Positions 43,882 through 56,011 of a stretch of 64,000 nucleotides of DNA are shown here, in pieces. Within the stretch, counting starts at the first letter, position 1, and each line of letters begins with the position of its first letter. Under the pieces are notes generated by a model that saw only the letters and a list, made by a program, of their open reading frames with translations, did no database searches and was not told the origin of the DNA. This stretch comes from Spirochaetia bacterium (lineage in GTDB: Bacteria > Spirochaetota > Spirochaetia > DSM-2461), in contig CAXXIA010000002.1 in NCBI GenBank assembly GCA_963666985.2, positions 2,208,001 through 2,272,000 of the forward strand. Direction: 5' to 3'. The position numbers and the translations under genes are program-made.

Positions 43882-43980
43882 CGTCTTGTTCGGCGGGCGG
43901 ATGGGAAACAATTGTAAACACCTGAATCCCGACCGCCGTAAAGTTGGTTCCCGTCGTTAAAAAATCATGTTCGAGGGAAC

Positions 43981-44718
43981 TTAATAATTCCCTTCCGCCG
44001 TTTCTCCGGCCATGACTTTGATGCTTGACCCTATTCCCAGGCGGTCGGCCCCGGCACGGATCATGGATACAGCCGCATCCCAGGTCCGAATCCCGCCGGA
44101 GGCTTTCACGCCCATTTCCGGTCCCACGGTTCGCCGCATCAGGGCGACGTCTTCAACGGTGGCACCGCCGGTGGAGAAGCCGGTGGATGTTTTCACGAAA
44201 TCGGCTCCCGCCTTTTTTGAGAGTTCACAGGCGATAACTTTTTCTTCGTCGGAGAGCATGCAGGTTTCCAGAATCACCTTCAGCACCGTGTTTGTCTTTG
44301 CGGCGCGTCTCACCGTCCGGATGTCTTCTTCTACGGCCGCGTAATCACCCGAACGGAGGGCGCCGACATTGATGACCATATCGATTTCAGTGGCCCCGGC
44401 GGATACGGCGTCACCGGCTTCGAAGGCTTTGCTTTCAGAGGTCATGGCGCCCAGAGGGAATCCCACTACCGAGCACACTTCGATGCCGGAACCTTGGAGT
44501 TTTCGAGCAACGTAGGAGACCCAGTATGAATTGACGCAGATGGACTTGAAATTGTACTGAATGCATTCATTGACGATTTGGTCGTATTGTTCCCGTGTTG
44601 ATTCAGGTTTAAGCAGGGTGTGATCTATGTAGCGGGCCATTTCGGCACGGGAGATGGTTCCCTCCGGTCCGTGGGATTGGTGAGAGGCCGCGTTTATCTC
44701 CGGTTTATTCGTATTCAT
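43981..44718 (-). CDS. deoC: Deoxyribose-phosphate aldolase
   Basis: IDHTLLKP, VGFPLG, EIDMVIN, KVILET, FVKTSTG and VKASGGIR. Confidence 0.96.
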   Translation of the reverse strand: MNTNKPEINAASHQSHGPEGTISRAEMARYIDHTLLKPESTREQYDQIVNECIQYNFKSICVNSYWVSYVARKLQGSGIEVCSVVGFPLGAMTSESKAFEAGDAVSAGATEIDMVINVGALRSGDYAAVEEDIRTVRRAAKTNTVLKVILETCMLSDEEKVIACELSKKAGADFVKTSTGFSTGGATVEDVALMRRTVGPEMGVKASGGIRTWDAAVSMIRAGADRLGIGSSIKVMAGETAEGNY

Positions 44719-44914
44719 GTTAATCTCCTTGTGGATTTACAGCTTCTTATATAATAAACCGAACGCGGATGGAGTTTCAGAATAATTTTTGCCCTCGGCA
44801 TTCATGAAGAGACATCATAGAGGTAACATTGAGCATGAAGCGCCCCGCCGCAATCGGCGGAATTAAGATTAAAGCTCATCGACTTCAGCGCTGTCCGCTG
44901 TATAAAATCCATGC

Positions 44915-45712
44915 ATGTGCGTCCGTGCATTCGAGCCTGCCGATTTAGTCCCTCTGGCGGAACTCCAGCCCGAGGGGTGGACCGACATCGTGCCCATGTT
45001 CAAGTATTATCTTCGTTCCGCTTTCTGCCGCCCGATGAAAATCGAAAAGGACAGCATTCTTGTCGGTGTGTGCGCGGCCATCGTGTTCCCCGGAACCGGC
45101 TGGCTGGCCCACGTTATCGTGCGGGAAAGCTTTCGCGGCGGCGGCTTCGGCCGGCGGCTTATAAAAAAAGCACTATCCGATATGAATTCCATGGGATGCG
45201 GTACGGTGTCTCTGATTGCCACCGACGCGGGACACCCCTTGTATCTTCGGGCCGGTTTTCGGGATCAGATGGAATATATCGTATATCAAGGATCCAGAAT
45301 CCCCCTCTCGGCCGCCTCGGAAGGTGTTCGTCCGCTGACTTTCATCGATATTCCGGAGCTGGAACGACTTGACCGGATTGTTTCGGGAGAACGGCGCCGG
45401 GCTTTAATTCGGGGTTCGGCGGCCGACGCTTCCGTGTACGAGAAAGACGGGCGGATTAAGGGAGCTTATTTACCGGCCCTTGGCGAAGGTTCCGTTATTG
45501 CTGTGAACGCATCTTCGGGTACGGCCCTACTGCGGGAGAAAATCGTCAGAGACGATAAGGTCGTTATTCCGGAGGGGAACGAAACGGCGCGGCGAATCCT
45601 GGGCGGCTGGGGATTTCGGGAAACTTCCCGAATGATAAGGATGGTTCTCGGCCCGGAATTCGCCTGGAAGCCGGATTGCCTTTTCGGCAGGGCGGGAGGC
45701 AATCTCGGATGA
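44915..45712 (+). CDS. GNAT family N-acetyltransferase (tandem-GNAT type)
   Basis: VRESFRGGGFG acetyl-CoA motif and LIATDAGHPLYLRAGF. Confidence 0.85.
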   Translation: MCVRAFEPADLVPLAELQPEGWTDIVPMFKYYLRSAFCRPMKIEKDSILVGVCAAIVFPGTGWLAHVIVRESFRGGGFGRRLIKKALSDMNSMGCGTVSLIATDAGHPLYLRAGFRDQMEYIVYQGSRIPLSAASEGVRPLTFIDIPELERLDRIVSGERRRALIRGSAADASVYEKDGRIKGAYLPALGEGSVIAVNASSGTALLREKIVRDDKVVIPEGNETARRILGGWGFRETSRMIRMVLGPEFAWKPDCLFGRAGGNLG

Positions 45713-45932
45713 GGGCCGGCTGAAAGCCCGTACTCCCGCCGTAAGGCAGACGGTCCTCATGCTGCCGACTGAACGCCGAACGCGAACGTAACGAACGTCG
45801 ATACGGAGTTTGAACCGTCTGCAATCCGGAATTTTGTATAACTTTTTTCTTTTTACAACTTGAGTAAGAAGAACGAGAATTGATTATGGAAGGAGAACTT
45901 CAGGACAATTCGGTTCTCGCTTTGAGTATATT

Positions 45933-47828
45933 GTGACTTTTCGAAGACTGCTGTTTATTATTTTTGTATTGATCTCATTCACGCTTACTTCCTGCAGGGA
46001 ACGAGGAACTCAGCCGCTGGCGAAGAACGGCATTCTGGATCTTCGGGATTGGGATTTCAAGGAAAAGGGAGTTATCCGGCTTAATGGGGAGTGGAATTTT
46101 TATTGGAAAAACTTCATCGATCCCGCGGCGGATTTTTCATCGGAAAGTTCCGGGAAGAATCTTATTTCCGTACCCTCTTTTTGGAACGGCTTCAACGATG
46201 GAAAGGGAAAGGTCGGGGGAAAGGGATATGCCTGTTATCACCTGCGAATCCTTTTGCCGCCGAATCCTCCCCGAATGGCGTTTACAGCGAAAGATATTCA
46301 TTCGGCGTTTAATCTTTATGCCAATGGAGAACTTCTTATTTCAACCGGTACCGTGGGTACGGATCAAGATTCTTCCATTACGAGTTTTTCTCCCTCCTTC
46401 ATCGGCTACACACCGAAATCGGAGATCGTCGATATCGTTGTTCATGTGTCGAATTTTGATTTTCTTCACGGCGGTATGTGGATTCCCATTCATTTTGGTG
46501 AGACGAATCAGCTTCGTGTAAGAGAAGAATCCGACATCATAATAGATTTTCTCATATTGGGTTTTATTCTCACCATGGGCTTTTACCATATGATGCGATT
46601 TATCACCGTTAAGTTTGAATGGATGTCTTTTCATTTCGGGATGATCTGCATATCCGTTGGGTTGTTAACATTTATTCTCGATGATTTGCATGCCTATCGA
46701 TTATTTCCAAACTCGAGTTTCCCGCTTCTCTTTCGAATCGGATTATGGTCCTTCACAACCGCGCTTTCCGCCTTCTTTTCCTTCACTCGGAGTTTGTATA
46801 AAGATCTGATAAATAGGCATGTATTTAACTTTGTTATTCTTGTAAGCGCTTTTTTCTCTCTGATTATTCTTGTTTCACCGTTAAGACTTATTGCATGGGC
46901 TTTAATGGTTTATCAGTTGATTACATTTACGGCCTTCGGCTACATGTGCTTCATTTATATTCGAGCCGTACGCTTGAAGCTTTTCGGTTCCCGAATACTT
47001 ATCGTGGGATTTGCAATTCTCTTCATTGCTTCGGTGAACGATATGCTCTATATGAATCATTTCATTGAAACCGGCTATATATTCAAATGGTCTTTTATTT
47101 TTGTCCTTATTCTTCAGACCTATTTGATTACCCGTATGGTTCTGGAAGATTATCAGAAAATGGCCATACAGAATCGGGATCTTACCGAAACCCGATTGGG
47201 AGTTATCATCGGATTAGCCAAACTGGCCGAATACAGAGACGGAGAAACGGGGGCCCATCTGGATCGCATTCGGGATTACTGTTTCATCTTAGCTGAAGAA
47301 CTGATTCTGCTTCCTCGATTTAAAGACTATATTGACGCAAAGTATGTGGACGATCTTTGCTATTCCTCCATCCTTCATGATATTGGGAAGGTTGGCGTAT
47401 CGGATTCAATCCTGCTGAAACCGGGACGACTGACGGAAGAAGAATTCAGCCAAATAAAAAAGCATACGACGATCGGCGGTGATTCCATAAAAAATGTGGA
47501 AAAAGGTTTGAGCGACCGAACCTTTCTCTCCCTCGGTAAAGAAATCGCCTACTATCATCATGAGAAATGGGACGGAAGCGGTTATCCCGAAGGGAAAAAG
47601 GGAAAAGAAATTCCGTTATCCGCCAGAATCGTTGCTCTTGCGGACGTTTACGACGCATTGACGTCCAAACGTCCCTATAAAGAAGCGTTTTCTCATGAAA
47701 AGGCCCGCAAAATCATTATTGAAGGCCGGGGAATTCATTTTGATCCGGATATTGTTGATGCGTTTTTGTCCAGAGAGAAAGACTTTAAAATTCTCAGAAT
47801 GCGGCTGATTGATGAGCCGGCGGATTAA
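45933..47828 (+). CDS. 7TM-DISM sensor fused to HD-GYP c-di-GMP phosphodiesterase
   Basis: GILDLRDWDF..LNGEWNFYW extracellular domain, about 7 TM segments, ETGAHLDR, HDIGK, HHEKWDGSGYP and ADVYDAL. Confidence 0.92.
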   Translation: MTFRRLLFIIFVLISFTLTSCRERGTQPLAKNGILDLRDWDFKEKGVIRLNGEWNFYWKNFIDPAADFSSESSGKNLISVPSFWNGFNDGKGKVGGKGYACYHLRILLPPNPPRMAFTAKDIHSAFNLYANGELLISTGTVGTDQDSSITSFSPSFIGYTPKSEIVDIVVHVSNFDFLHGGMWIPIHFGETNQLRVREESDIIIDFLILGFILTMGFYHMMRFITVKFEWMSFHFGMICISVGLLTFILDDLHAYRLFPNSSFPLLFRIGLWSFTTALSAFFSFTRSLYKDLINRHVFNFVILVSAFFSLIILVSPLRLIAWALMVYQLITFTAFGYMCFIYIRAVRLKLFGSRILIVGFAILFIASVNDMLYMNHFIETGYIFKWSFIFVLILQTYLITRMVLEDYQKMAIQNRDLTETRLGVIIGLAKLAEYRDGETGAHLDRIRDYCFILAEELILLPRFKDYIDAKYVDDLCYSSILHDIGKVGVSDSILLKPGRLTEEEFSQIKKHTTIGGDSIKNVEKGLSDRTFLSLGKEIAYYHHEKWDGSGYPEGKKGKEIPLSARIVALADVYDALTSKRPYKEAFSHEKARKIIIEGRGIHFDPDIVDAFLSREKDFKILRMRLIDEPAD

Positions 47829-47918
47829 GAATCGGGGTTCCCGGCATCGAAAGAAACATCGGTGCCGTTTTCACGAATCCGCAGTTTCTAAGCGGATTGT
47901 TCCGAACCCCCCGCGTAC

Positions 47919-50900
47919 TTAAATCACATCCTGTTCCCGGAAGCTGGCGATATATTTCATCATTAATTTTTCATCGATTCCGGGGCATTCGATTCCCAGA
48001 GGCCGAAGATTCGCTTCGGTATGAGGAGCAAGCACTTTAGCCTGTCGTTTGGAATACCGGTCGAAGAAGGAAAGTCCTGCGGTATCCTTCCCGCCGATTA
48101 AGTCTTTGAAGTAGTAAAGGATGTTGTCTTCTCCCTGTTTTTCGAAGGCGGACCGCCATGCGTCGAAGGGAACGCGTTTCACATCGATTCCGGCCTTTGA
48201 AAAGAATTCGGTAAGATCGGCGACGGTCTGCTCCTCGGTGTTGAGCAGATGGTAGTTCGTCACGTTCCCGCTTTCCTGGAGCATCAGGGCGACGACGGCT
48301 TTGCCGATATAATCCACCGGAGTCATCGGGACGAATACATCCAAATCAGGAACCATGCCGAGCTGGATACTGGAAATGAGGAATTGGCTTGCGAAATCGG
48401 CGGCTTTCCATATTCCGTTTTCGGTATCGCCGGTGATTTGACCGGGCCGGAAAACCAGGGCGTCCAAACCTTTTTCCCGAGCCGAAGCGATGCATTTTTC
48501 GGCGACCCATTTCGTTTGAGAATAGCCGAGAAGAAAGCCTTCGGAAACGGAAGCTTCGGAGGTTTCATCGACGATTTTTTCGAAGTAGGAGGGAGAATCG
48601 AAGATGCTGTAGGAGGAAATATAGGCAAGGCGTTTGGGCTTTCCCGCCGCGCAGAGACGGATCGCCTCTATGACGGACCCGACATTGGTTTCTTTCATCA
48701 TCTGGTAGGGATAAAGGAAATTCAAATGCGCGCCGTTATGGAGAACGATATCCGCCTCTTCGGCGATTCGTGAGAAATCCTTCGCGGACATTCCGAGGGA
48801 CGGCCGTGACAAATCGCCGAGAATGGGAATAATCCGGTTCCGCATGGATTCGTCCCATGAACGGTAACTTAGGAGATTATTTCGGATGCGCTGCATCCCG
48901 GATTCGGCATCGGCGGCCCTGACATGGCAGAAAAGAACGGAATCCGTTTCCCGAATCAATTCCCGGATGAGATAGGCGCCGAGGAAACCGGTGGCTCCGG
49001 TCAGGAAGATCGCGGACGGTTTGGTGATGTTCGGCCTGCCGGGTGATGCAAAGCGAAGATCATCGGGCAGAACGGCTTCCTTTTTCAGGTCGATACCGCC
49101 GCCGGCCGAGTTTGCCGCTTCACCGTCAAGGAGCGCCCCGATTCGAACCGCGAGGCGCCGCGCCGTCGGACGGCCGATAAACTCGGAAAAGGGAATTTTC
49201 ACGCCGAACATTGCTTCCAGCGCGAAGACGAGCCGCGTAACGGCAAGGGAATCCATACCCGCCGCAAGAAGGTTGTCTTCCGGTCCGGGATTTTTTTTCA
49301 GGTTGAATTTTTCCGTCAGTTCTCGAAGGATGCGTGCTTCAATTTCGTCCGTGGGCGCTTTATGAAGCGCCGATGCTGCGGCGGAAGAACCCGATGCCGG
49401 TCCGGCCTTGGAAGGTCCGGCGGCGCCCTCCGCGGCTTTATCGGCAGGCTTGCCGTTATTCGGCGCCGATGAAGGAATCCTTTCAAGTTTGTCTTTCAGA
49501 TAAAGATCTTTTACGGCGATTCTTCTGATTTTTCTGTTGTCCGTTCGCGGCAGGGAAGCCGAAGTTACGAAGACGATGTCATGGGGAGAAAGGCCGAATT
49601 TCTCCAGAAGTACCGCGGCGATGGCTTCCGACGCGTTCTGCCGATTAATACCGGCGGCGGCTTCAACGCAAAGCACGAACTCTTCTTTTCGATTGTTCGT
49701 TACGGAAAAAGCGGCGAAGTCGCAGTCTTTCATTCCCGGAATTCCGGCGGCCGCCAATTCGAAATCCTGAGGATAGTAGTTTTTACCGGCGACGATTATT
49801 AGCTCCTTGATTCTGCCGGTAACGTAAAGATGTCCTTCGTGGAGAATGCCGAGGTCGCCCGTGCGGAGAAAAAATCCATCTTCGCCGCTTAGCGTGTTAC
49901 GGAAGGTTTTCTGAGTTTCCGCTTCGTTATTCCAGTAACCCTTGGCAACGGCGGGTCCCTGAACCCAAATCTCACCGATTTCTCCCGGCCCGCAGAGCTT
50001 TTCGGTTTCGGGATTAACGATGCGGACCGTAAAGCTGTCCATCACTTCCCCGCAGGACACGAAGGTTCGTTTATCGCGTGAATCGGCGGCGGCTTCTTCA
50101 AAGAAGTTTTCGGCAACTCTTGAAGCCTCCACGACGGCGGTGCGAATCGGCGCGGGCTTTTTCTGGCAGGAAACCAGGATGGTTGTTTCGGACATGCCGT
50201 AACCGGGAGTGAAGCTGTCGATGGAGAAACCGGTGCCGTCCATCAATTCGGCGAAGGCTTCCAGGGTTTCGATATCAATGGCTTCCGATCCGTTTCCCGC
50301 GGCTTTAATGGCCGAAAGATCGAGATCTTTTACCTTTTCTTTGTCCAAAACATCGGCGCAGAGCCTGTAAATGGAATTGGGTGCGGCAATGAGGAACGCG
50401 CCGTATCGGGAGGCGATGTCGAAGAGCCGGAAGGGATCTTCCATGAACGCCGGAGGAGTCATATTAATGCTGTTGTAGCCGACATACACACTGAAAAGGC
50501 CGTGATACACAAGGCCTATGCTATGGAAGAACGGTGCGAATCCCACCGAAGGTTCTCTCATGGGATAGGCCGCTGTTTTCGCGATGTCGCGGATATTGGA
50601 AAGGATGTTCCGATGGCTCAGCATGATGCCCTTGGGCTGGGAGACGGATCCCGAAGTGTACTGCAGAACGGCCGTATCGTTCGGATCGATCGCTTCGGGA
50701 ACATAGTCGTCCGGTTTGCAGCGGCCATTGTCGATGTTGAACAGGGAAAACCCCTTGGCCAATCTGATAAGTCCCTTCATCAGGAATGTGGGAACGGCCT
50801 TCGGATACATCGCTTTTTCAAGGATGGGGGCCAGAAATTTATTGCAGAGTATAAATCGCGGCTTTGCGGATTTTAATACCGATTTGAAGCGGAGTTTTTT

Positions 50901-51206
50901 CTGTGCGTCCACCGGGGGCGGAATGATGACGATGATTCCGCCGGCGTAGAGGGTGCCGAAGAGGGAAAGGATGTTGTCATGGGTTTGCGAGGAGAACACC
51001 AGGACCCTCTGCCCTCTTTTTAATCCCATCCTTTTCAGGTCCGCCGCGATGCGTCGGGCCTCATCATAGACTTCTTTAAAGGTGAACTCGTAGATGTTCT
51101 CTTTGCCGTCCCGGTGATAAATGAACGTGTAGGCTGTTTCGTTCGGGGTGAGTCGTGCTTTTTCTTCGAGCAGTTCGGTTAATGTCCAAGCGCTGCTGTA
51201 TTCCAT
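47919..51206 (-). CDS. Fatty acyl-AMP ligase + acyl carrier + thioester reductase (FAAL-ACP-R) multidomain enzyme
   Basis: LQYTSGS..PKG, YGMSE, RTGDLG and GRIKELIIVAGKNYYPQDFE (FAAL-type); GMDSL phosphopantetheine Ser; TGATGFLG and YSQTK reductase. Start 51206 behind GAGGA; alternative start 51275. Confidence 0.9.
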   Translation of the reverse strand: MEYSSAWTLTELLEEKARLTPNETAYTFIYHRDGKENIYEFTFKEVYDEARRIAADLKRMGLKRGQRVLVFSSQTHDNILSLFGTLYAGGIIVIIPPPVDAQKKLRFKSVLKSAKPRFILCNKFLAPILEKAMYPKAVPTFLMKGLIRLAKGFSLFNIDNGRCKPDDYVPEAIDPNDTAVLQYTSGSVSQPKGIMLSHRNILSNIRDIAKTAAYPMREPSVGFAPFFHSIGLVYHGLFSVYVGYNSINMTPPAFMEDPFRLFDIASRYGAFLIAAPNSIYRLCADVLDKEKVKDLDLSAIKAAGNGSEAIDIETLEAFAELMDGTGFSIDSFTPGYGMSETTILVSCQKKPAPIRTAVVEASRVAENFFEEAAADSRDKRTFVSCGEVMDSFTVRIVNPETEKLCGPGEIGEIWVQGPAVAKGYWNNEAETQKTFRNTLSGEDGFFLRTGDLGILHEGHLYVTGRIKELIIVAGKNYYPQDFELAAAGIPGMKDCDFAAFSVTNNRKEEFVLCVEAAAGINRQNASEAIAAVLLEKFGLSPHDIVFVTSASLPRTDNRKIRRIAVKDLYLKDKLERIPSSAPNNGKPADKAAEGAAGPSKAGPASGSSAAASALHKAPTDEIEARILRELTEKFNLKKNPGPEDNLLAAGMDSLAVTRLVFALEAMFGVKIPFSEFIGRPTARRLAVRIGALLDGEAANSAGGGIDLKKEAVLPDDLRFASPGRPNITKPSAIFLTGATGFLGAYLIRELIRETDSVLFCHVRAADAESGMQRIRNNLLSYRSWDESMRNRIIPILGDLSRPSLGMSAKDFSRIAEEADIVLHNGAHLNFLYPYQMMKETNVGSVIEAIRLCAAGKPKRLAYISSYSIFDSPSYFEKIVDETSEASVSEGFLLGYSQTKWVAEKCIASAREKGLDALVFRPGQITGDTENGIWKAADFASQFLISSIQLGMVPDLDVFVPMTPVDYIGKAVVALMLQESGNVTNYHLLNTEEQTVADLTEFFSKAGIDVKRVPFDAWRSAFEKQGEDNILYYFKDLIGGKDTAGLSFFDRYSKRQAKVLAPHTEANLRPLGIECPGIDEKLMMKYIASFREQDVI

Positions 51207-51231
51207 GGCATCCTCGTGAATTGGGGCTATT

Positions 51232-51271
51232 CGCCTTCCGTCCGGGAAGAGACGGGCGGAAGGCGTTTTTT
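51232..51271. terminator. GC-rich hairpin between acyltransferase and FAAL genes
   Basis: CGCCTTCCG...CGGAAGGCG followed by a T-run on the + strand (antisense to the operon). Confidence 0.55.
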
Positions 51272-51274
51272 GCA

Positions 51275-52024
51275 TTATGAGCTGTGGCGGTTCTTTTTAT
51301 CGGTCTTTTTCGGCGGAGTCTGTCCGCCGGGCAGATTGCAATCGCCGCCGTTTTCATCGATGACATTCTGCATTTCCGCGTGAACCGCCTCCGAGAAGGC
51401 TTTCATCGCTTCTTTTCTGCTTTGTGAGTTTTTAAGATAAGATTCGGGATACAGGGGTTTCCCGATGATGTACTCCACTCGAGGCGGAAGCCAGGGGAAA
51501 ATACGCCAGGCTTTTCGTTCATGGAGAACTTCGGTCATGGGAAGAACCGGAACATCGGCCGCAAGGGCGAAATGGAAAGCACCCGGGAAAAAAGGGGCGA
51601 TATTCTGATTCCTATGATACAAAACCCCTTCGGGATAGATATGGACAACATGTTTTTTCTTCAGGGCTTTCAGAATCGGGGTGGTAACGGATAAAGGCCT
51701 GTCTTCCGGAATTCCGAAAGCGCCCATGATTCTGCACAGCCAGCCGATATACGTTCGTTCCACGTTCTTTTGCTCTGCACAGTACCAGAGACGCCTTGGC
51801 CAGACGGTCATGCCTGCAAAAATTGGTTCACCATAGAGGCAGTGGTTGGAGACGGTTATGAATCCCCGGCGTCCGATTGAACGGAGGTTTTTTCCGCCTT
51901 TAATCCGCATGGCGTAAAGAACGCGGACGACCGGGCAGACCAGGACTTTGGCCAGAAAGGTCATGATGCCGGTAGCGACTGTCCGCGGAAAAGAAAAATT
52001 GATGATGGGGTGATCGGATGCCAT
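51275..52024 (-). CDS. PlsC/lysophospholipid acyltransferase family protein
   Basis: VSNHCLYGE (HX4E variant of HX4D), YPEG and AFHFAL..VPVLP; 1-nt overlap with the GT2 gene. Confidence 0.85.
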   Translation of the reverse strand: MASDHPIINFSFPRTVATGIMTFLAKVLVCPVVRVLYAMRIKGGKNLRSIGRRGFITVSNHCLYGEPIFAGMTVWPRRLWYCAEQKNVERTYIGWLCRIMGAFGIPEDRPLSVTTPILKALKKKHVVHIYPEGVLYHRNQNIAPFFPGAFHFALAADVPVLPMTEVLHERKAWRIFPWLPPRVEYIIGKPLYPESYLKNSQSRKEAMKAFSEAVHAEMQNVIDENGGDCNLPGGQTPPKKTDKKNRHSS

Positions 52025-53175
52025 CAGCCGTCACCCGTGCGGGAGTAGGTTACCACGCGTCCTTTCCAGGAATATCCCCGACCGGAAAATCCGTTGATGA
52101 TGGAACTCAGGCATACCCATGCCATAACGGCGAACTGGACCGGATAAAGGAACGGGACATACCATTTCTGCCTTCTATCCCAAAGAACCGCCGCCCAGGC
52201 GGTCAGGAAGGTTGCCATTCCAATCCAGATTCCGAGGGGCAACGTATGTCCCCGCAGCAGATCGGCGGCCGCGATAAGGGGCGGAGAAAGGATTAATCCG
52301 CCCAACAGGATGATTATCAGGCCGAGCGTCAGGGCGCTGCCGTCGAAGTATTCCAGCTGAATCCGTCGAAGGCCTTTAAAAGCCTCGCCGAAAGAACCGT
52401 AGAGTTCTCCGGAAAGAACGTCTTTTGCGTCCAGGAAGGCATGCCGGAAACCTTTTTCTTTCATACGCCGGGCCATGCAGACATCTTCGTTGATTCTGTT
52501 TTTCACGGCATCGTATCCGCCGGCTTCGTCATAGGCTTTTCGGGTGTAGGCGAAAATTTGGCCTATGGCGTGGCTGTCTTTTGGATTTGTGTTTTCCATA
52601 ACCTTCCAGAGGCGAACGATGTTCATGGTCGGCATGTAGAATACGGGAGCCAGCAGTGCTTCACCGAAGTTCCTCATGGGGTGGCGGGCATAGCCCGAAA
52701 GGGAATCCGCTTCGTGGACCGTCAGATTGGTTGCCGCCCAGGCGATGAGATCGGTTTGAGGAGCCATGTCGGCATCCAGAAAAAGAAGGATATCGCCGCT
52801 TGCGTGTCCGGCCAGCTGCGAGAGGGCCCAGGGTTTGCCGTTCCACCCTTCGGGGATCGGGCCGCCTTCGATAATTTTAAACCGCGAATCACCCTCGGCG
52901 GCTTGGTCCATAAGGGCGCGGGTTCCGTCGGTGGAATGGTCATCCAGAAGGATAACCTCATAATTCGCATAATTTTGGCGCTTCAGGCCTTCCAGACAAG
53001 GACCGATTCGTCTTTCTTCGTTTCGCGCCGGAACCAGGATGGAAACTTTGGGGCCTTCGAAAATCTCAGGTTTTTGAGTTGCCTTTCGCATGAAAAGGAC
53101 ATTCCTGATACCCATCCATAAGAAAAACATGCCCATCCCGATGATGAGGGCGGAGTACAGAGTGATGAAATCCAA
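52024..53175 (-). CDS. Membrane-bound GT2 glycosyltransferase (CrtQ/HpnB-like)
   Basis: VSILVPARNEE, DDHSTDGT, GWNGKPWA, FLDAD, EDV and C-terminal WKGR; N- and C-terminal TMs; TTG start. Confidence 0.9.
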   Translation of the reverse strand: MDFITLYSALIIGMGMFFLWMGIRNVLFMRKATQKPEIFEGPKVSILVPARNEERRIGPCLEGLKRQNYANYEVILLDDHSTDGTRALMDQAAEGDSRFKIIEGGPIPEGWNGKPWALSQLAGHASGDILLFLDADMAPQTDLIAWAATNLTVHEADSLSGYARHPMRNFGEALLAPVFYMPTMNIVRLWKVMENTNPKDSHAIGQIFAYTRKAYDEAGGYDAVKNRINEDVCMARRMKEKGFRHAFLDAKDVLSGELYGSFGEAFKGLRRIQLEYFDGSALTLGLIIILLGGLILSPPLIAAADLLRGHTLPLGIWIGMATFLTAWAAVLWDRRQKWYVPFLYPVQFAVMAWVCLSSIINGFSGRGYSWKGRVVTYSRTGDG

Positions 53176-53420
53176 GCAAACCTCCGGGGCTGAGGGATTA
53201 TAGTCTTAACGCATCGTAACACCGATTAACCGGCCGTCACAGCCTTATCTCGGCCCTGTTTATGGATTTGACTTCTTATTTTGTTATGTTAGGAAATTGT
53301 TAAATTTTATCTTTTTTGTAGATTGACTATCAACATTATATTTTTCGCACTTTTTTTCTTGCGCCGCCATCGAAAGCGCCATAGCGTTTGAGTGAAATCG
53401 ATAACCGCCAGGAGGCCACA

Positions 53421-54413
53421 ATGATTAGAGCCAATTATGAATCGGATGCCGGCAAACGCAAGTTTGTTCCCCACGAACAATTGGGGACCATTCCGCACAT
53501 GCCTTTCGAAGAGTATTCCGAGAAACTGAAGCACTGCTTAATGATGAAAAGAGAAAATGGAATCCTCGAAGCACGGCTTCATACCGACGGCGACTCCATG
53601 CGATGGGGCGCTCCCGCGCATCAGGGACTTCATTACTTCTTCGACTGGGCCGGCAGAGACCCGGAAAATGAAATCATTATTCTCGGAGGCACGGGAAAGG
53701 ATTTCATCAAATCCATGGGCAGACCCAAGGATGAAGACGCCGAACCCGAAGCAGAAGAGTTCAGTTCCAAGGAAAACGAAGCCTGGAAGATGTACGAATA
53801 TCAGTATTACGACGGTATCAACGATATCGAAGGTCAGATTTTCGACATTGAGGTTCCCACCATCGGTGTCTGGAACGGTGCGGCGTTCCACACGGATCTT
53901 GTTCTCTACAACGATATTACCCTTTGTACCGAAGATGCCTGGACCACCGAAATGCATTTCAGGGTGAACATGGTTCCCGGCGACGGAATCCAGCTTGCAT
54001 GGAGAGAATTGATGGGCATGAAGAGATTCTCTTATGCGGAACTCACCGGCGAGATTATCACCGCCCGCAAAGCCCTGGAGCTGGGCATGGTGAACGAAAT
54101 CTGCACCGATACCGAAGCCGCCTATAAAAGAGCCTGGGAAATCGCCGAATTGATTATGCGAACCGGTTCCCGGGTTACCCGCCGCATAACAACTCAGCAG
54201 CTTCGGGCAAAATGGAAAAGCATTATTGCGAATGAAGCACGGAACGCCTTCTCCACCGAGATGTTCGTTACCGCAACCGAGCATTCTCCGCATGACAATT
54301 ATTTCTGGGACTGGGCTCACGAAGAGGCGGAACTGGTGAAGAAAGCCGAGAAGATGGGCAAAGTGGTTCGTCCGCGCGTGAACGGCGGTCAGATGGAAGA
54401 CGAAATCAAGTAA
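53421..54413 (+). CDS. Crotonase-fold protein resembling 6-oxocamphor (beta-diketone) hydrolase
   Basis: DPENEIIILGGTG, EVPTIGVWNG, HTD, HF....PGDG and TARKALELGMVNE; start behind AGGAGG. Confidence 0.75.
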   Translation: MIRANYESDAGKRKFVPHEQLGTIPHMPFEEYSEKLKHCLMMKRENGILEARLHTDGDSMRWGAPAHQGLHYFFDWAGRDPENEIIILGGTGKDFIKSMGRPKDEDAEPEAEEFSSKENEAWKMYEYQYYDGINDIEGQIFDIEVPTIGVWNGAAFHTDLVLYNDITLCTEDAWTTEMHFRVNMVPGDGIQLAWRELMGMKRFSYAELTGEIITARKALELGMVNEICTDTEAAYKRAWEIAELIMRTGSRVTRRITTQQLRAKWKSIIANEARNAFSTEMFVTATEHSPHDNYFWDWAHEEAELVKKAEKMGKVVRPRVNGGQMEDEIK

Positions 54414-54435
54414 TTTCAGCCCTAATTTCTTAAGC

Positions 54436-54461
54436 AAAGCCCGGGCTTCTCCGGGCTTTTT
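54436..54461. terminator. Bidirectional intrinsic terminator between convergent genes
   Basis: AAAGCCCGG-gcttct-CCGGGCTTTTT. Confidence 0.85.
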
Positions 54462-54463
54462 AA

Positions 54464-56011
54464 TTAACGGTGAAACTTCGGCTGTGAAGATGACATTCTG
54501 GAGACCGCATCGACGATAACCGGTCTGATGCGCCGAACCGCTCCGTCCATCTCTTCATCATCGAGCGCCGTTATTCCAAAGAGCAGTCCTCCATATTTGG
54601 GTTTTACCAAGGCATAAGAGGAGAGGGCGGGCACTTCGTATCCGCGTGTTCGCAGGGCCAGCGATACGATGTTGTCGTCGACTCCTTCGGGCAGCCGGAC
54701 GACGATGTGCAGACCGGCGCCGCAGTCGTTAATACCGATGATATTGCCGAGGTGACCTCGAAGCGCCTTGAGCAGCGCTTCTCTTTTATTCGTGTATATC
54801 TTGCGCATTCGGCGGATATGGCGGGTGAAGTGTCCTTCGCGAATATAATCGTTCAGAACGATTTGTTCGAATGAAGGAGACCCCCTGTCGGCATGAGCTC
54901 TGAGGGCGTGTATGGGTTCCACCAGATTCATGGGAACCACCATGTATCCGAGGCGCAAACCCGGAAAAAGAACCTTGCTGAACGTACCCACGTAAATAAC
55001 GCGTTCCGCCCTGTCTATGCCCTGAAGGGACATCACCGGATCGCCGCTGTAGCGGAACTCGCTGTCGTAGTCGTCTTCGATAATCCAGGACTTGTTTTCT
55101 TCGGCCCACCGCAGGAGCTGAAGGCGGCGATTGAAATCCATGGTAACACCCATCGGGTACTGGTTGGACGGCGAAATGTATGCGGCCCGGCTTGACGGAT
55201 CGGCTTTCAGGGCCGCTTCGACATTAAAGCCTTCTTCATCCACGGGAACGGGAACCAGGCGGGCGGGAACGTTCCGAAACGCCGCCTTGGCACCGTCGTA
55301 GCTGGGATCTTCGATCCAGACGGATTCTCCGGGATTCAGCAGGAGCTGCGAGGTGAGGTTGAGCGCCTGCTGGGCGCCGTCGGTGATGATGACCTGACGG
55401 CTGACGCAGGAAACGCCGCGGGAGGTTCTTAAATAAGATGCGAGGGCTTCGCGAAGCGGGTGGTATCCGAGGGCCGAGGGATATCCGAATTGGTTTCGGG
55501 GCATGCGTCTCCAGGCGCGGTTCATCAGCGTTCCCCAGATGGTGACGAATCGTTCGTCGATATACGGAAACGCCGGAGTGAAGGGCACCAGGCGGGACTG
55601 TTCCATGTAGGGAACGTTCTGGAGGGCTATGGCTCTGTCCGAGATTTTCGGATTTCGTTCTTTCGTTCCCGGACTTCTCCCTCGAGCCGCCGCCTGAAGG
55701 CTTCCTTCGCCGTCGATTCCGTCTCTGAGCAGTTCTTCCGGAAGCGAAGAACTTACGACGGTGCCCGAGCCGATGGAACTTTCAAGGAGACCTTCGGCCA
55801 AAAGCTGGTTGTAGGCGTTCACGACGGTATTGCGGCCGATTCCCGCCTCCTCGGACAAGGCCCGGGTGGAAGGCATGCGGTCGCCGGGAAGCAGATGTCC
55901 CGTTATGATTTTATCCCGGATGGTTCTGTAGAGCTGTCTGTGGAGCGGCGCGGATGCGTTCCGATCCAAATTGATGATTCCGAGAGAGACTTGAGGCGCG
56001 ACTCTGGGCAT
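54464..56011 (-). CDS. MocR/GabR family regulator (GntR HTH + PLP aminotransferase-like domain)
   Basis: PSTRALS..IGRNTVVNAYNQL.AEG, PSNQYPMG, IIEDDYDSEF and GTFSKVLFPGLRLG. Confidence 0.95.
   Translation of the reverse strand: MPRVAPQVSLGIINLDRNASAPLHRQLYRTIRDKIITGHLLPGDRMPSTRALSEEAGIGRNTVVNAYNQLLAEGLLESSIGSGTVVSSSLPEELLRDGIDGEGSLQAAARGRSPGTKERNPKISDRAIALQNVPYMEQSRLVPFTPAFPYIDERFVTIWGTLMNRAWRRMPRNQFGYPSALGYHPLREALASYLRTSRGVSCVSRQVIITDGAQQALNLTSQLLLNPGESVWIEDPSYDGAKAAFRNVPARLVPVPVDEEGFNVEAALKADPSSRAAYISPSNQYPMGVTMDFNRRLQLLRWAEENKSWIIEDDYDSEFRYSGDPVMSLQGIDRAERVIYVGTFSKVLFPGLRLGYMVVPMNLVEPIHALRAHADRGSPSFEQIVLNDYIREGHFTRHIRRMRKIYTNKREALLKALRGHLGNIIGINDCGAGLHIVVRLPEGVDDNIVSLALRTRGYEVPALSSYALVKPKYGGLLFGITALDDEEMDGAVRRIRPVIVDAVSRMSSSQPKFHR

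What the first reader, a model, noticed from the sequence alone, without database searches (positions are those of the whole stretch)
47919..53175. Compact GT2 - acyltransferase - FAAL/ACP/thioester-reductase operon: candidate new glyco- or ether-lipid pathway
Seen: three co-oriented, tightly linked genes; the large one has FAAL-type adenylation, a GMDSL carrier and a terminal reductase, with no KS or condensation domain. Established: FAAL-ACP-R enzymes release fatty aldehydes or alcohols; myxobacterial ElbD combines similar domains with an acyltransferase for ether lipids; CrtQ/HpnB-like GT2s glycosylate lipophilic acceptors. Inference: fatty alcohol formation followed by glycosylation and acylation (acylated alkyl glycoside), or alkyl-glycerolipid synthesis. 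I know of no described pathway like this in spirochaetes.
Basis: partly seen in the sequence, partly recalled or inferred. Interest (0 to 1): 0.7.

Follow-up and report, generated by a model that had tools for sequence, protein, structure and literature searches.

The report
Spirochaete glycolipid genes plus fatty-acid reductase
A spirochaete operon joins a membrane sugar-transferase and an acyl-transferase, a gene pair that many relatives carry, to a fatty-acid-activating and -reducing enzyme seen only here and in one sister strain; it likely builds a glycolipid with a fatty-alcohol-derived chain, which would be a new lipid route but is untested.

Summary
Three co-oriented genes on the minus strand encode a membrane GT2 glycosyltransferase (52024-53175), a PlsC-family acyltransferase (51275-52024) and a 1118-aa FAAL / carrier / thioester-reductase protein (47919-51275). 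The last has no KS or condensation domain.

The trio is not an old unit. The GT2-acyltransferase pair is a conserved spirochaete module. This genome holds three copies, and the other two follow a secreted TPR protein. This acyltransferase type is also repeatedly fused to glycosyltransferases in other organisms.

The reductase gene is an add-on. It was found with the pair only in this genome and in a sister organism about 94% identical. A congener has the same pair type without it. It was not found in 40 relatives or next to any of 158 loci holding FAAL or reductase relatives.

The reductase domain is closest to the MxaA reductase domain, and it is the only strong FAR-type domain in the genome. 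The genome lacks phytoene/squalene synthase, so carotenoids are unlikely acceptors. It does encode an unlinked alkyl-DHAP synthase homologue.

Best reading, about 0.3: fatty acid to fatty alcohol to acylated alkyl glycoside. Rivals are an alkyl-glycerol glycolipid made via the AGPS homologue, or mere co-location of unrelated functions. This is a new combination of known parts, and its function is untested.

The parts
53304..53333 (-). promoter-like site (TTGATA-18-TAAAAT, 10 of 12) about 130 nt upstream of the GT2 start, in the 212-nt AT-rich divergent intergenic region
   Evidence: consensus scan: 5 sites found against 4.0 expected, so weak evidence on its own; sequence
52024..53175 (-). GT2 lipid-type glycosyltransferase, 383 aa, with a TTG start 5 nt after GGAGG, one N-terminal and several C-terminal hydrophobic segments, and a conserved D79/D83, D134-x-D136, D231 and C-terminal W370-K-x-R373
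   Evidence: The NCBIfam best hits are CruG (152 bits, cut-off 600) and HpnB (142 bits, cut-off 379), both below cut-off.
51275..52024 (-). PlsC-superfamily acyltransferase, 249 aa, with an N-terminal hydrophobic anchor, N60-H61-x4-E66 (the HX4D/E motif) and P131-E132-G133
   Evidence: The start overlaps the GT2 stop (TGATG).
51232..51265 (-). GC-rich hairpin in the spacer between the acyltransferase stop and the probable start of the reductase gene. It has no U-run after it on the mRNA strand.
   Evidence: 13-pair stem; -26.1 kcal/mol, z -2.33, 5 of 200 shuffles fold as well
47919..51275 (-). FAAL - carrier - thioester reductase gene. The longest ORF is 1118 aa and the probable true start is ATG at 51206 (M24).
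49476..51170 (-). FAAL-type adenylation domain (residues about 36-600), with a roughly 27-residue insertion relative to the genome's own acyl-CoA-ligase paralogues
   Evidence: (best solved relatives are FAALs: 7r7g 293 bits, 3kxw 270 bits, FadD23, FadD32)
49149..49331 (-). carrier (phosphopantetheine attachment) domain, GMDSL with S676
47925..49010 (-). terminal thioester reductase domain (TGATGFLG, Y918-x3-K922)
   Evidence: TIGR01746 295.9 bits, cut-off 213.35; best solved relative is MxaA 4u7w at 240 bits; CAR 92 bits

Best explanation
The operon couples a spirochaete lipid glycosyltransferase-acyltransferase pair to a fatty-acid reductase, and it likely makes an acylated alkyl glycoside. 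Shown by sequence: the large protein has a FAAL-type adenylation domain, a carrier domain with its serine, and a thioester reductase with intact NAD(P)H and Tyr/Lys motifs. The GT2 and the acyltransferase keep their catalytic motifs and membrane anchors. The three genes are arranged for co-expression. Inferred steps follow. (1) The FAAL would adenylate a free long-chain fatty acid and load it on its own carrier domain. That domain would have to be primed by the genome's single AcpS-type PPTase. (2) The reductase domain would release the acyl chain reductively as a fatty aldehyde and probably as the primary alcohol. (3) The GT2 would transfer a hexose from a nucleotide sugar to that hydroxyl at the cytoplasmic face of the membrane. 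(4) The acyltransferase would esterify the sugar, or another hydroxyl of the product, using acyl-ACP or acyl-CoA. On this reading the reductase supplies the hydroxyl acceptor, as CruF does for the related GT2 in carotenoid clusters.
For: Domain content and motifs. FAAL type: the best NCBIfam and PDB hits are FAALs, and there is a roughly 27-aa insertion relative to the genome's own FACL paralogues. Reductase: TIGR01746 scores above its cut-off. The nearest solved structure is MxaA (240 bits, against 92 for CAR). That MxaA forms alcohols is recalled, not shown by any search. Operon: overlapping or closely spaced genes, one upstream promoter-like site, divergent and convergent neighbours. GT2 and AT belong together. 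They are adjacent in 13 of 29 GT2 loci in the first set and in most genus loci. They are fused in L141. Among 30 long proteins taken from the best 150 representatives, 4 are GT2-AT fusions, 10 are full GT4-AT fusions and 8 are partial GT4+AT fusions, and none carries a FAAL, carrier or reductase domain. Related GT2s act on lipid hydroxyls: L139 and L140 have crtI-like - AT - GT2 - cruF-like clusters. Carotenoids or hopanoids are unlikely acceptors here, because no PF00494 match was found in the 93%-complete genome. The window gene is the only strong FAR-type domain in the genome (217 bits, next best 36). Chemical precedents from papers: in heterocyte glycolipids a thioester reductase and a GT act on a fatty-alcohol aglycone (PMC11804610, passages). 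In Borrelia, cholesteryl 6-O-acyl-galactoside is started by the GT2 BB0572 (PMC8168883, passages). The three genes stay intact and in frame in the sister organism.
Against: The same type of GT2-AT pair (68% and 61% identical) exists in congener G007 with no reductase gene after it. Two paralogous pairs in this genome also lack a reductase. The pair's usual acceptor therefore does not need this enzyme. The trio was not found beyond the sister organism: 0 of 40 relatives have the large protein, and 0 of 158 loci with FAAL or reductase relatives have a GT2-AT pair beside them. If M24 is the true start, the reductase gene has its own ribosome-binding site behind a hairpin. That would fit an appended gene as well as a coupled one. 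The many GT4-AT fusions hint at glycerolipid acceptors rather than free alcohols (inference). Whether the reductase stops at the aldehyde cannot be read from sequence. No RNA or lipid data exist.
Confidence: 0.3

Rival explanations
1. Ether glycoglycerolipid route. The reductase would supply fatty alcohol to the genome's unlinked alkyl-DHAP synthase (AGPS) homologue. The acyltransferase would act as DHAP or 1-alkyl-glycerol-3-phosphate acyltransferase. The GT2 would add the sugar head group to alkyl-acyl-glycerol. This is the FAR + GNPAT + AGPS logic of aerobic ether-lipid synthesis, finished by a glycosyltransferase.
For: G000 encodes a 587-aa protein at C2:618834-620594. Its best solved relatives are alkyl-DHAP synthases (2uuu 212 bits, 4bby 176 bits), against 69 bits for glycolate oxidase. 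It carries an SHHHGVG stretch; that HHH is an AGPS hallmark is recalled. It sits beside an FGGY kinase and GlpA-like dehydrogenases that could supply DHAP. The window gene is the genome's only strong FAR-type domain. Reductase + PF01553 acyltransferase + AGPS-like genes cluster in L028 and L040. P0013 is a FAAL-ACP-R-AT fusion from the same clade as the window protein. Papers describe FAR/GNPAT fusions and the AGPS triad (PMC13012113 and PMC9131029, passages). This reading also explains why GT2-AT pairs work elsewhere without the reductase: they could use ordinary diacylglycerol.
Against: AGPS orthologues (47-84% identity) occur in 11 of 60 relatives, none of which has the FAAL-ACP-R. The FAR-like hits in G007 and G448 are generic epimerase-type SDRs, and G006, G447 and G025 had no hit. 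The genomes of the three nearest full-length relatives of the reductase (L013, L014, L016) have no AGPS at E <= 1e-20. The AGPS gene lies about 1.6 Mb from the operon. The acyltransferase is only remotely like the ElbD-type or fused acyltransferases (30% over 109 aa), and its own subfamily partners with glycosyltransferases. The alkyl-DHAP reductase and phosphatase steps are unassigned.
Confidence: 0.25
2. Co-location without a shared pathway. The GT2-AT pair does here what its orthologues and paralogues do without a reductase, namely make an acylated glycolipid on a common membrane lipid. The FAAL-ACP-R would be a self-sufficient fatty-acid reductase that landed at the operon's 3' end and is merely co-transcribed.
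For: The pair exists without the reductase in G007 and in two paralogous loci. Full-length relatives of the reductase stand in unrelated contexts. L013 and L161/L162 have no lipid genes nearby, L014 has a PPTase, L016 and L170 have a condensation-domain protein, and L169 has dehydratase-activase genes. The 65% homologue P0004 lies on a contig whose length (7332) matches no GT2 or AT hit. A possible own start with a ribosome-binding site follows a hairpin.
Against: There is very tight spacing and no promoter-like site or minus-strand terminator-like site in the spacer. The arrangement is kept intact in the sister organism. Codon usage of all three genes is ordinary for the genome, so the insertion is not recent. 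Reductase-acyltransferase linkage recurs in other lineages.
Confidence: 0.25
3. Dedicated acyl donor. The FAAL would load an exogenous fatty acid on its own carrier domain, and the acyltransferase would take the acyl group from that carrier, as in Aas and FAAL-ACP-AT fusions. The reductase domain would serve as a side route or for editing.
For: The best NCBIfam hit of the acyltransferase is the acyl-ACP-dependent Aas family (48 bits, far below cut-off). Five FAAL-ACP-AT fusions were seen among the 158 loci screened: L028, L193, L227, L228 and L237.
Against: The reductase domain is fully intact and conserved at 94% and at 65% identity, which argues that reductive release is its main job. The acyltransferase subfamily works in fusions that have no carrier domain.
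Confidence: 0.1

Closest known systems
ElbD and the elb ether-lipid operon of Myxococcus xanthus
   Same: The same four activities are present: fatty-acid activation, carrier, FAR-type reductase and a PF01553 acyltransferase. In M. xanthus they are genetically tied to alkyl ether lipids (PMC9131029, passages read).
   Different: ElbD is one chain ordered reductase - ligase - ACP - acyltransferase. Here the order is ligase - carrier - reductase with a separate upstream acyltransferase. That acyltransferase belongs to a subfamily that pairs with glycosyltransferases. There are no elbB or elbE-like neighbours, and a GT2 is present instead.
FAR / GNPAT (FARAT) / AGPS pathway of aerobic ether-lipid synthesis
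   Same: A FAR-type reductase sits next to a PF01553 acyltransferase, and an AGPS homologue is present in the same genome. Similar triads are clustered in L028 and L040.
   Different: The AGPS gene is unlinked. It also occurs in 11 relatives that lack the reductase. The reductase is carrier-dependent (FAAL-ACP-R), not an acyl-CoA reductase.
CruC/CruG-type carotenoid glycosyltransferases with CruD-type acyltransferases
   Same: The GT2 belongs to the same broad family. The best NCBIfam hits are CruG and HpnB, and JGI names relatives 'chlorobactene glucosyltransferase'. Spirochaete loci L139 and L140 show crtI-like - AT - GT2 - cruF-like clusters. The logic is the same: a lipid hydroxyl is glycosylated and then acylated (PMC7414004, passages).
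   Different: Scores are far below the family cut-offs. The genome has no phytoene/squalene synthase. The window GT2 lies in a genus-level clade remote from the carotenoid-context ones (quick tree). The acyltransferase is not specifically related to the one in L139 (E 0.01).
Heterocyte glycolipid (hgl) pathway of cyanobacteria
   Same: A carrier-bound acyl chain is released by a thioester reductase as a fatty alcohol, which a glycosyltransferase then glycosylates (PMC11804610, passages). ACP-TR proteins of heterocystous cyanobacteria are among the best matches to residues 640-1110.
   Different: There the chain is built by a PKS and no FAAL loads a free fatty acid. HglT was not compared here. 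No sugar acylation is described in the passages read.
Borrelia cholesteryl 6-O-acyl-beta-galactoside (ACGal) and GT2 BB0572
   Same: It is a spirochaete glycolipid that is an acylated glycoside of a lipid alcohol, started by a GT2. Its acyltransferase is still unknown (PMC8168883, passages).
   Different: The acceptor is host cholesterol. BB0572 was not compared by sequence here. No P0003 match at E <= 1e-30 was found in most spirochaete families searched.
Carboxylic acid reductases (CAR) and the MxaA terminal reductase
   Same: The A - carrier - R architecture matches CARs. The reductase domain is most like MxaA.
   Different: The A domain is FAAL type, not CAR type. CAR structures match only the carrier-reductase part, at 92 bits.

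Membership tests
Fatty acyl-AMP ligase (FAAL) | ANL-superfamily adenylation fold with its core motifs | tested here: met
   PF00501 210 bits. YTSGS, TGD and K582 are invariant in 17 relatives.
Fatty acyl-AMP ligase (FAAL) | FAAL-specific insertion absent from acyl-CoA ligases | tested here: met
   A roughly 27-residue insertion after GYGxSE relative to three acyl-CoA-ligase paralogues of the same genome, shared with P0004 and P0010.
Fatty acyl-AMP ligase (FAAL) | closest characterised relatives are FAALs, not amino-acid A domains | tested here: met
   PDB: 7r7g 293 bits, 3kxw 270, FadD23 232, FadD32 213. NCBIfam: FAAL models 298-323 bits against 131 for TIGR01733.
Fatty acyl-AMP ligase (FAAL) | score above a curated NCBIfam FAAL cut-off | tested here: not met
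   PRK05850 scores 323 bits against a cut-off of 775, and the other FAAL models are likewise below cut-off. It is a distant member with no equivalog.
Fatty acyl-AMP ligase (FAAL) | activates fatty acids and transfers them to a carrier, not to CoA | not testable with these tools
   Needs an enzyme assay.
Thioester reductase domain (TIGR01746) | curated score cut-off, Rossmann TGxxGxxG and catalytic Y-x3-K | tested here: met
   295.9 bits against a cut-off of 213.35. T759-G760-x-T762-G763-F764-x-G766, Y918 and K922 are invariant.
Thioester reductase domain (TIGR01746) | four-electron release to the alcohol rather than to the aldehyde | not testable with these tools
   Only similarity to MxaA is available. 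That MxaA yields alcohols is recalled.
Carboxylic acid reductase (CAR) | A - carrier - R architecture | tested here: met
Carboxylic acid reductase (CAR) | sequence kinship with CAR over the whole length | tested here: not met
   CAR chains 5msc and 5msp match only residues 665-1046, at 89-92 bits.
ElbD (myxobacterial ether-lipid enzyme) | one polypeptide ordered reductase - ligase - ACP - AGPAT | tested here: not met
   The order here is ligase - carrier - reductase with the acyltransferase as a separate gene upstream. The ElbD order is taken from PMC9131029 passages.
ElbD (myxobacterial ether-lipid enzyme) | elbB (HAD) and elbE (NAD epimerase-type) neighbours | tested here: not met
   The flanking genes are HD-GYP, a crotonase-family gene and a PdxR-like regulator.
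CruC/CruG/HpnB-type lipid GT2 | curated NCBIfam cut-off | tested here: not met
   CruG 152 bits against 600; HpnB 142 bits against 379.
CruC/CruG/HpnB-type lipid GT2 | carotenoid or hopanoid backbone genes in the genome or locus | tested here: not met
   No PF00494 match in G000, which is 93% complete; 8 of 14 control genomes gave a match. No crt or cru genes flank the operon.
CruC/CruG/HpnB-type lipid GT2 | GT2 catalytic motifs (DxD, acidic base) and membrane topology | tested here: met
   D79, D83, D134-x-D136 and D231 are conserved in at least 90% of 54 family members. Hydrophobic termini are visible in the sequence.
FAR + GNPAT + AGPS ether-lipid pathway | AGPS homologue in the same genome | tested here: met
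   L240:6832-8595 has best PDB hits 2uuu at 212 bits and 4bby at 176 bits.
FAR + GNPAT + AGPS ether-lipid pathway | co-occurrence of the reductase with AGPS across genomes | tested here: not met
   AGPS orthologues occur in 11 of 60 relatives, none of which has the FAAL-ACP-R. 0 of 3 genomes of the nearest reductase relatives have AGPS.
PlsC/LPLAT acyltransferase superfamily | HX4D/E and PEG motifs | tested here: met
   N60-H61 occur in 34 of 34 members. Position 66 is D in 27 and E in 7. E132 occurs in 34 of 34. PF01553 scores 45 bits against a cut-off of 23.

The most novel reading that the evidence does not exclude
A spirochaete makes glycerol-free glycolipids, acylated long-chain alkyl glycosides, from free fatty acids with just three genes: a FAAL-carrier-reductase makes the alcohol and a GT2-acyltransferase pair decorates it. 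This would be a compact natural route to alkyl-glycoside surfactant-like membrane lipids. It would also give a first assigned function for the widespread GT-acyltransferase modules and fusions.
Probability: 0.3. Interest if true: 0.65.

Novelty: new variant of a known kind. Interest (0 to 1): 0.5.

Why it matters
If the three enzymes work together, the operon is a minimal route from a free fatty acid to an alkyl-chain glycolipid. The product would be either a glycerol-free alkyl glycoside or an ether glycoglycerolipid. I found no paper describing such a cassette in four full-text searches: FAAL + thioester reductase + glycosyltransferase + glycolipid gave 0 papers, and searches gave none either.

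The work also uncovered three things of wider use. First, a TPR - GT2 - acyltransferase module is present in up to three copies in these spirochaetes. Second, this acyltransferase type is repeatedly fused to both GT2 and GT4 enzymes in other organisms. Third, alkyl-DHAP-synthase homologues sit beside glycerol-to-DHAP genes in several spirochaete relatives. All of these point to glycolipid and ether-lipid chemistry in the group that has not been assigned to genes.

The limits are clear. The trio is confined to one narrow lineage, and nothing about its product has been measured.

Tried and rejected
RNA evidence: no RNA holder was listed for the stretch, so co-transcription could not be checked.

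Earlier findings of this scan: nothing near the place or like the GT2.

Literature: the first search was useless because word-start matching caught 'crude' and 'cruciate'. The search for FAAL + thioester reductase + glycosyltransferase + glycolipid returned 0 papers. PMC5193443 was read for GT-acyltransferase fusions and held nothing relevant.

ESM Atlas look-up of the acyltransferase gave only generic 'AGPAT family' clusters.

Foreign origin by composition: GC3 and codon usage of the three genes fall at the 39th to 71st percentile of 1375 long ORFs, so there is no signal.

FAR-like proteins in AGPS-positive relatives: the PF07993 hits in G007 and G448 score higher for the generic Epimerase family and are 22-24% identical to the window reductase domain. 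I rejected them as FARs.

Context of the 65% homologue P0004 and of the 80% and 70% GT2/AT homologues could only be inferred from equal contig lengths, because the tool that fetches those contigs is closed.

The careful tree search did not finish, so a quick IQ-TREE tree was used.

Two Pfam calls failed on mistyped coordinates and were corrected (then 46).

Structure prediction, fold search and complex prediction were not run. I judged that they could not tell the acceptors apart.

The roughly 1420-aa ORFs in relatives G015, G019, G020 and G040 that match the carrier-reductase part at 23-30% identity were not followed up (searches showed only partial loci).

Full report
OBSERVATION

The window holds three co-oriented minus-strand ORFs at 52024-53175 (383 aa), 51275-52024 (249 aa) and 47919-51275 (1118 aa).
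- Pfam assigns the first to GT2/GT21.
- It assigns the second to PF01553 Acyltransferase.
- It assigns the third to AMP-binding (36-448, with a DIP2-like C-terminal subdomain at 491-599), PP-binding (649-709) and NAD_binding_4 (758-993). No ketosynthase or condensation domain was found.

NCBIfam ranks FAAL models first for the large protein, at 298-323 bits. All are below their cut-offs. It places the reductase domain above the TIGR01746 cut-off (295.9 against 213.35). For the GT2 the best hits are CruG (152 bits, cut-off 600) and HpnB (142 bits, cut-off 379). For the acyltransferase the best hit is the Aas-type acyl-ACP acyltransferase, which is weak.

OPERON ANATOMY

The GT2 starts at a TTG five bases after GGAGG. 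The GT2 stop overlaps the acyltransferase start (TGATG). The acyltransferase stop overlaps the first ATG of the long ORF (TAATG).

That first ATG is probably not the real start, for four reasons:
- M24 is invariant in 17 of 17 aligned relatives.
- The 65%-identical homologue P0004 begins at M24.
- GAGGA precedes the ATG at 51206.
- The 66 nt in between form a 13-pair GC-rich hairpin at 51232-51265. It folds at -26.1 kcal/mol with z = -2.33 and has no U-run after it on the mRNA strand.

A promoter-like site (10 of 12 matches) lies about 130 nt upstream of the GT2. The scan as a whole found no more sites than shuffled sequence gives. The unit is bounded by a convergent 7TM-HD-GYP gene and a divergent crotonase-family gene. 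Next to the latter is a PdxR-like regulator. None of these is an obvious partner.

THE LARGE PROTEIN

Its nearest solved A domains are FAALs: 7r7g at 293 bits, 3kxw at 270, then FadD23, FadD32, 3pbk and FadD28. Its nearest solved reductase is MxaA (4u7w, 240 bits). Carboxylic acid reductases match only the carrier-reductase part, at 89-92 bits.

Compared with three acyl-CoA-ligase paralogues of the same genome, it carries a roughly 27-residue insertion after GYGxSE, where FAALs have their hallmark insertion. The carrier serine (S676), the TGATGFLG motif and Y918/K922 are invariant in 17 relatives.

The shown part is a FAAL-type loader, a carrier and an intact thioester reductase. The substrate chain, and whether release stops at the aldehyde or goes to the alcohol, are inferred. 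That MxaA makes alcohols is recalled.

The genome has one ACPS-family PPTase, in a 167-aa frame. It also has a free ACP, a FabF-like KS and a 2324-aa PKS-like ORF.

IS THE TRIO CONSERVED? ONLY VERY NARROWLY.

In 40 relatives, the best non-self match to the large protein covers residues 637-1021 at E 1e-27. No orthologue was found.

In the 5.8-billion-protein collection the next hits are a 65% homologue (P0004) and then proteins at 30-36% identity. These come from Clostridia, Bacteroidales, an archaeal MAG, cyanobacteria and mycobacteria.

An exact look-up shows that each of the three proteins has a roughly 93-94% identical partner on a contig of the same length, 64557 bases. Contigs of a second organism (runs X3 and X4) lie collinear on window 43976-55957. 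They show 401 differences in 6733 bases over 46010-52742 and an in-frame 3-base insertion. So the trio, with the same neighbours, is intact in one sister organism.

Beyond that there is no sign of it:
- tblastn of the GT2 and the acyltransferase on the 91 loci then held found only the window itself and two weak GT2 hits.
- My own HMMs run on ORFs of 158 loci with FAAL or reductase relatives found no GT2-acyltransferase pair. They did find five FAAL-ACP-AT fusions, one reductase + AT + AGPS-like cluster (L040), and one hgl-like island with a related GT2 4.8 kb away (L164).

THE GT2-ACYLTRANSFERASE PAIR IS THE CONSERVED UNIT

The GT2 has matches at E <= 1e-30 in 27 of 401 genomes of the phylum, and in 17 of 61 relatives, including 8 of 13 congeners.

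The window's own genome has three GT2-AT pairs. The two others, at C2:316732-318554 and C2:1237994-1239895, are each preceded by a roughly 280-aa TPR protein whose N-terminus looks like a signal peptide (my reading of the translations; no predictor was run). Neither has a reductase.

- GT2 and AT are adjacent in 13 of 29 loci of the first set.
- The TPR gene sits next to the GT2 in 13 of 23 extended loci.
- The TPR gene is also present in most congener loci.

A quick tree places all genus GT2s in one clade with three paralogue subclades. The window's GT2 groups with P0124-P0126. GT2s from carotenoid contexts lie on the other deep branch (quick search only).

In congener G007, a window-type pair (68% and 61% identical) is followed by unrelated genes, not by a reductase.

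The acyltransferase type is a habitual partner of glycosyltransferases. I scanned 30 long proteins taken from the best 150 representatives. Of these, 4 are GT2-AT fusions, 10 are full GT4-AT fusions, 8 carry part of a GT4 plus the AT, 1 has two AT domains and 7 show the AT only. None has a FAAL, carrier or reductase domain. L141 is such a GT2-AT fusion in a spirochaete.

Both enzymes keep their catalytic motifs.

WHAT THE GT2 FAMILY ACTS ON

In two more distant spirochaete genomes (L139, L140) the family member sits in a crtI-like - AT - GT2 - cruF-like cluster. That is a carotenoid glycoside-ester arrangement (CruF/CruC/CruD roles from PMC7414004 passages).

The window's genome, 93% complete, has no phytoene/squalene synthase match, while 8 of 14 control genomes do. 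Its three GT2s must therefore use another lipid acceptor. Other contexts hint at glycerolipids: PlsY-GT2-GDSL lipase in L138, and lysophospholipase and HAD genes in L137.

The acyltransferase is only remotely like the one in L139 (E 0.01) and like ElbD-type fused ones (30% over 109 aa).

GENOME CONTEXT RELEVANT TO THE FATTY ALCOHOL

The window gene is the only strong FAR-type domain in the genome (217 bits; the next is 36).

Unexpectedly, the genome encodes an alkyl-DHAP-synthase homologue at C2:618834-620594. Its best solved relatives are 2uuu (212 bits) and 4bby (176 bits), against 69 bits for glycolate oxidase. It has an SHHHGVG stretch. It sits beside an FGGY kinase and GlpA-like dehydrogenases.

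Orthologues at 47-84% identity occur in 11 of 60 relatives, none of which has the FAAL-ACP-R. Their FAR-like hits are generic epimerases or absent. The genomes of the three nearest full-length reductase relatives have no AGPS.

MECHANISM

All readings share two parts.
- Shown: an intact fatty-acid loader and reductase is placed for co-expression with an intact membrane GT2 and acyltransferase that belong together.
- Inferred: the reductase yields a fatty aldehyde or alcohol.

I commit, at about 0.3, to the direct route. The alcohol is the hydroxyl acceptor of the GT2, and the acyltransferase then esterifies the glycoside. In this route the reductase plays the part that CruF plays in carotenoid clusters. 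The chemistry has precedents in heterocyte glycolipids and in Borrelia's acylated cholesteryl galactoside.

Against it stands the fact that orthologous and paralogous pairs work without any reductase.

The main rivals are:
- an ether glycoglycerolipid route through the AGPS homologue (0.25)
- simple co-location of a portable fatty-acid reductase with a glycolipid pair (0.25)
- a dedicated acyl-donor role (0.1)

COMPARISON AND NOVELTY

The large protein is a distant FAAL plus a bona fide thioester reductase. It is CAR-like in architecture but not in sequence. It is not an ElbD, because both the domain order and the separate acyltransferase fail that test.

The GT2 works like CruC/CruG/HpnB-type lipid glycosyltransferases, but it fails their cut-offs and lacks their substrates.

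No paper describing a GT2 - acyltransferase - FAAL/ACP/reductase cassette turned up. These searches cover only the open-access library. Supplements were not consulted.

I rate the finding a new variant of a known kind. The parts and the chemistry are familiar. The combination is new, narrow in distribution and untested.

Noticed in passing
G000 C2:315872-318554 (L119) and C2:1237994-1240772 (L120), outside the window: Two further copies of the GT2-acyltransferase pair are present, each preceded by a roughly 280-aa TPR protein whose N-terminus looks like a signal peptide (my reading; no predictor run). The TPR - GT2 - AT module recurs in 13 of 23 extended spirochaete loci and in most congeners. 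Its lipid product is unknown.
   Followed up: partly
G000 C2:618834-620594 (L240:6832-8595, minus strand), outside the window: An alkyl-DHAP synthase homologue (best PDB hits 2uuu at 212 bits and 4bby at 176 bits; SHHHGVG stretch) lies next to an FGGY kinase and GlpA-like dehydrogenases. Orthologues at 47-84% identity occur in 11 of 60 relatives. This suggests an AGPS-type ether-lipid step in these spirochaetes.
   Followed up: partly
window 51232-51265: A 13-pair GC-rich hairpin lies between the acyltransferase stop and the probable start of the reductase gene (-26.1 kcal/mol, z -2.33). The two changes that the sister's protein shows in this stretch (D12A, R14G) map by codon position to the hairpin's 8-nt loop. 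On the opposite strand it reads as a terminator-like site with a T-run.
   Followed up: partly
proteins P0261, P0285, P0313, P0347 (GT2-AT); P0273, P0296, P0297, P0321, P0329, P0350, P0351, P0373, P0388, P0400 (GT4-AT); L141:474-2363: The same acyltransferase type is fused to two unrelated glycosyltransferase folds, GT2 and GT4, in many organisms. This looks like a widespread bifunctional glycolipid enzyme class for which I know of no assigned product.
   Followed up: partly
L139:2476-6368 (G382) and L140:6665-10576 (G147): Spirochaete genomes carry a crtI-like - acyltransferase - GT2 - cruF-like cluster. This is a likely carotenoid glycoside-ester pathway in the phylum.
   Followed up: no
L028:4228-16305 (Dulcicalothrix desertica PCC 7102): This cluster holds HAD, an AGPS-like FAD oxidase, FAAL-ACP-R, FAAL-ACP-acyltransferase, a Zn-ADH, a fatty-acid desaturase and a CruF-like protein. 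It looks like a cyanobacterial ether-lipid gene set.
   Followed up: no
L040:8-11758 (Oleiharenicola MAG): A very large ORF ending in carrier-thioester reductase is followed by a PlsC-like acyltransferase, an AGPS-like FAD oxidase and efflux genes.
   Followed up: no
G000 C2:about 1635700-1642700, outside the window: A 2324-aa open frame has a ketosynthase and two carrier domains (PKS-like), in a genome with only one detected ACPS-type PPTase.
   Followed up: no
window 46010-52742 compared with 52811-55957 and 44403-45572: Against the sister organism's contig, the stretch with the HD-GYP gene and the trio differs at 6.0% of bases (401 of 6733). The flanks differ at 2.8% (88 of 3147) and 2.5% (29 of 1170). 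Protein identity of the three genes is only 93-94%. The region is evolving faster than its surroundings.
   Followed up: no
L016:5713-7005 and L170:4590-5885: In Bacteroidales-type contigs the FAAL-ACP-R relative is preceded by a stand-alone condensation-domain protein. That is a different use of the same reductase module.
   Followed up: no
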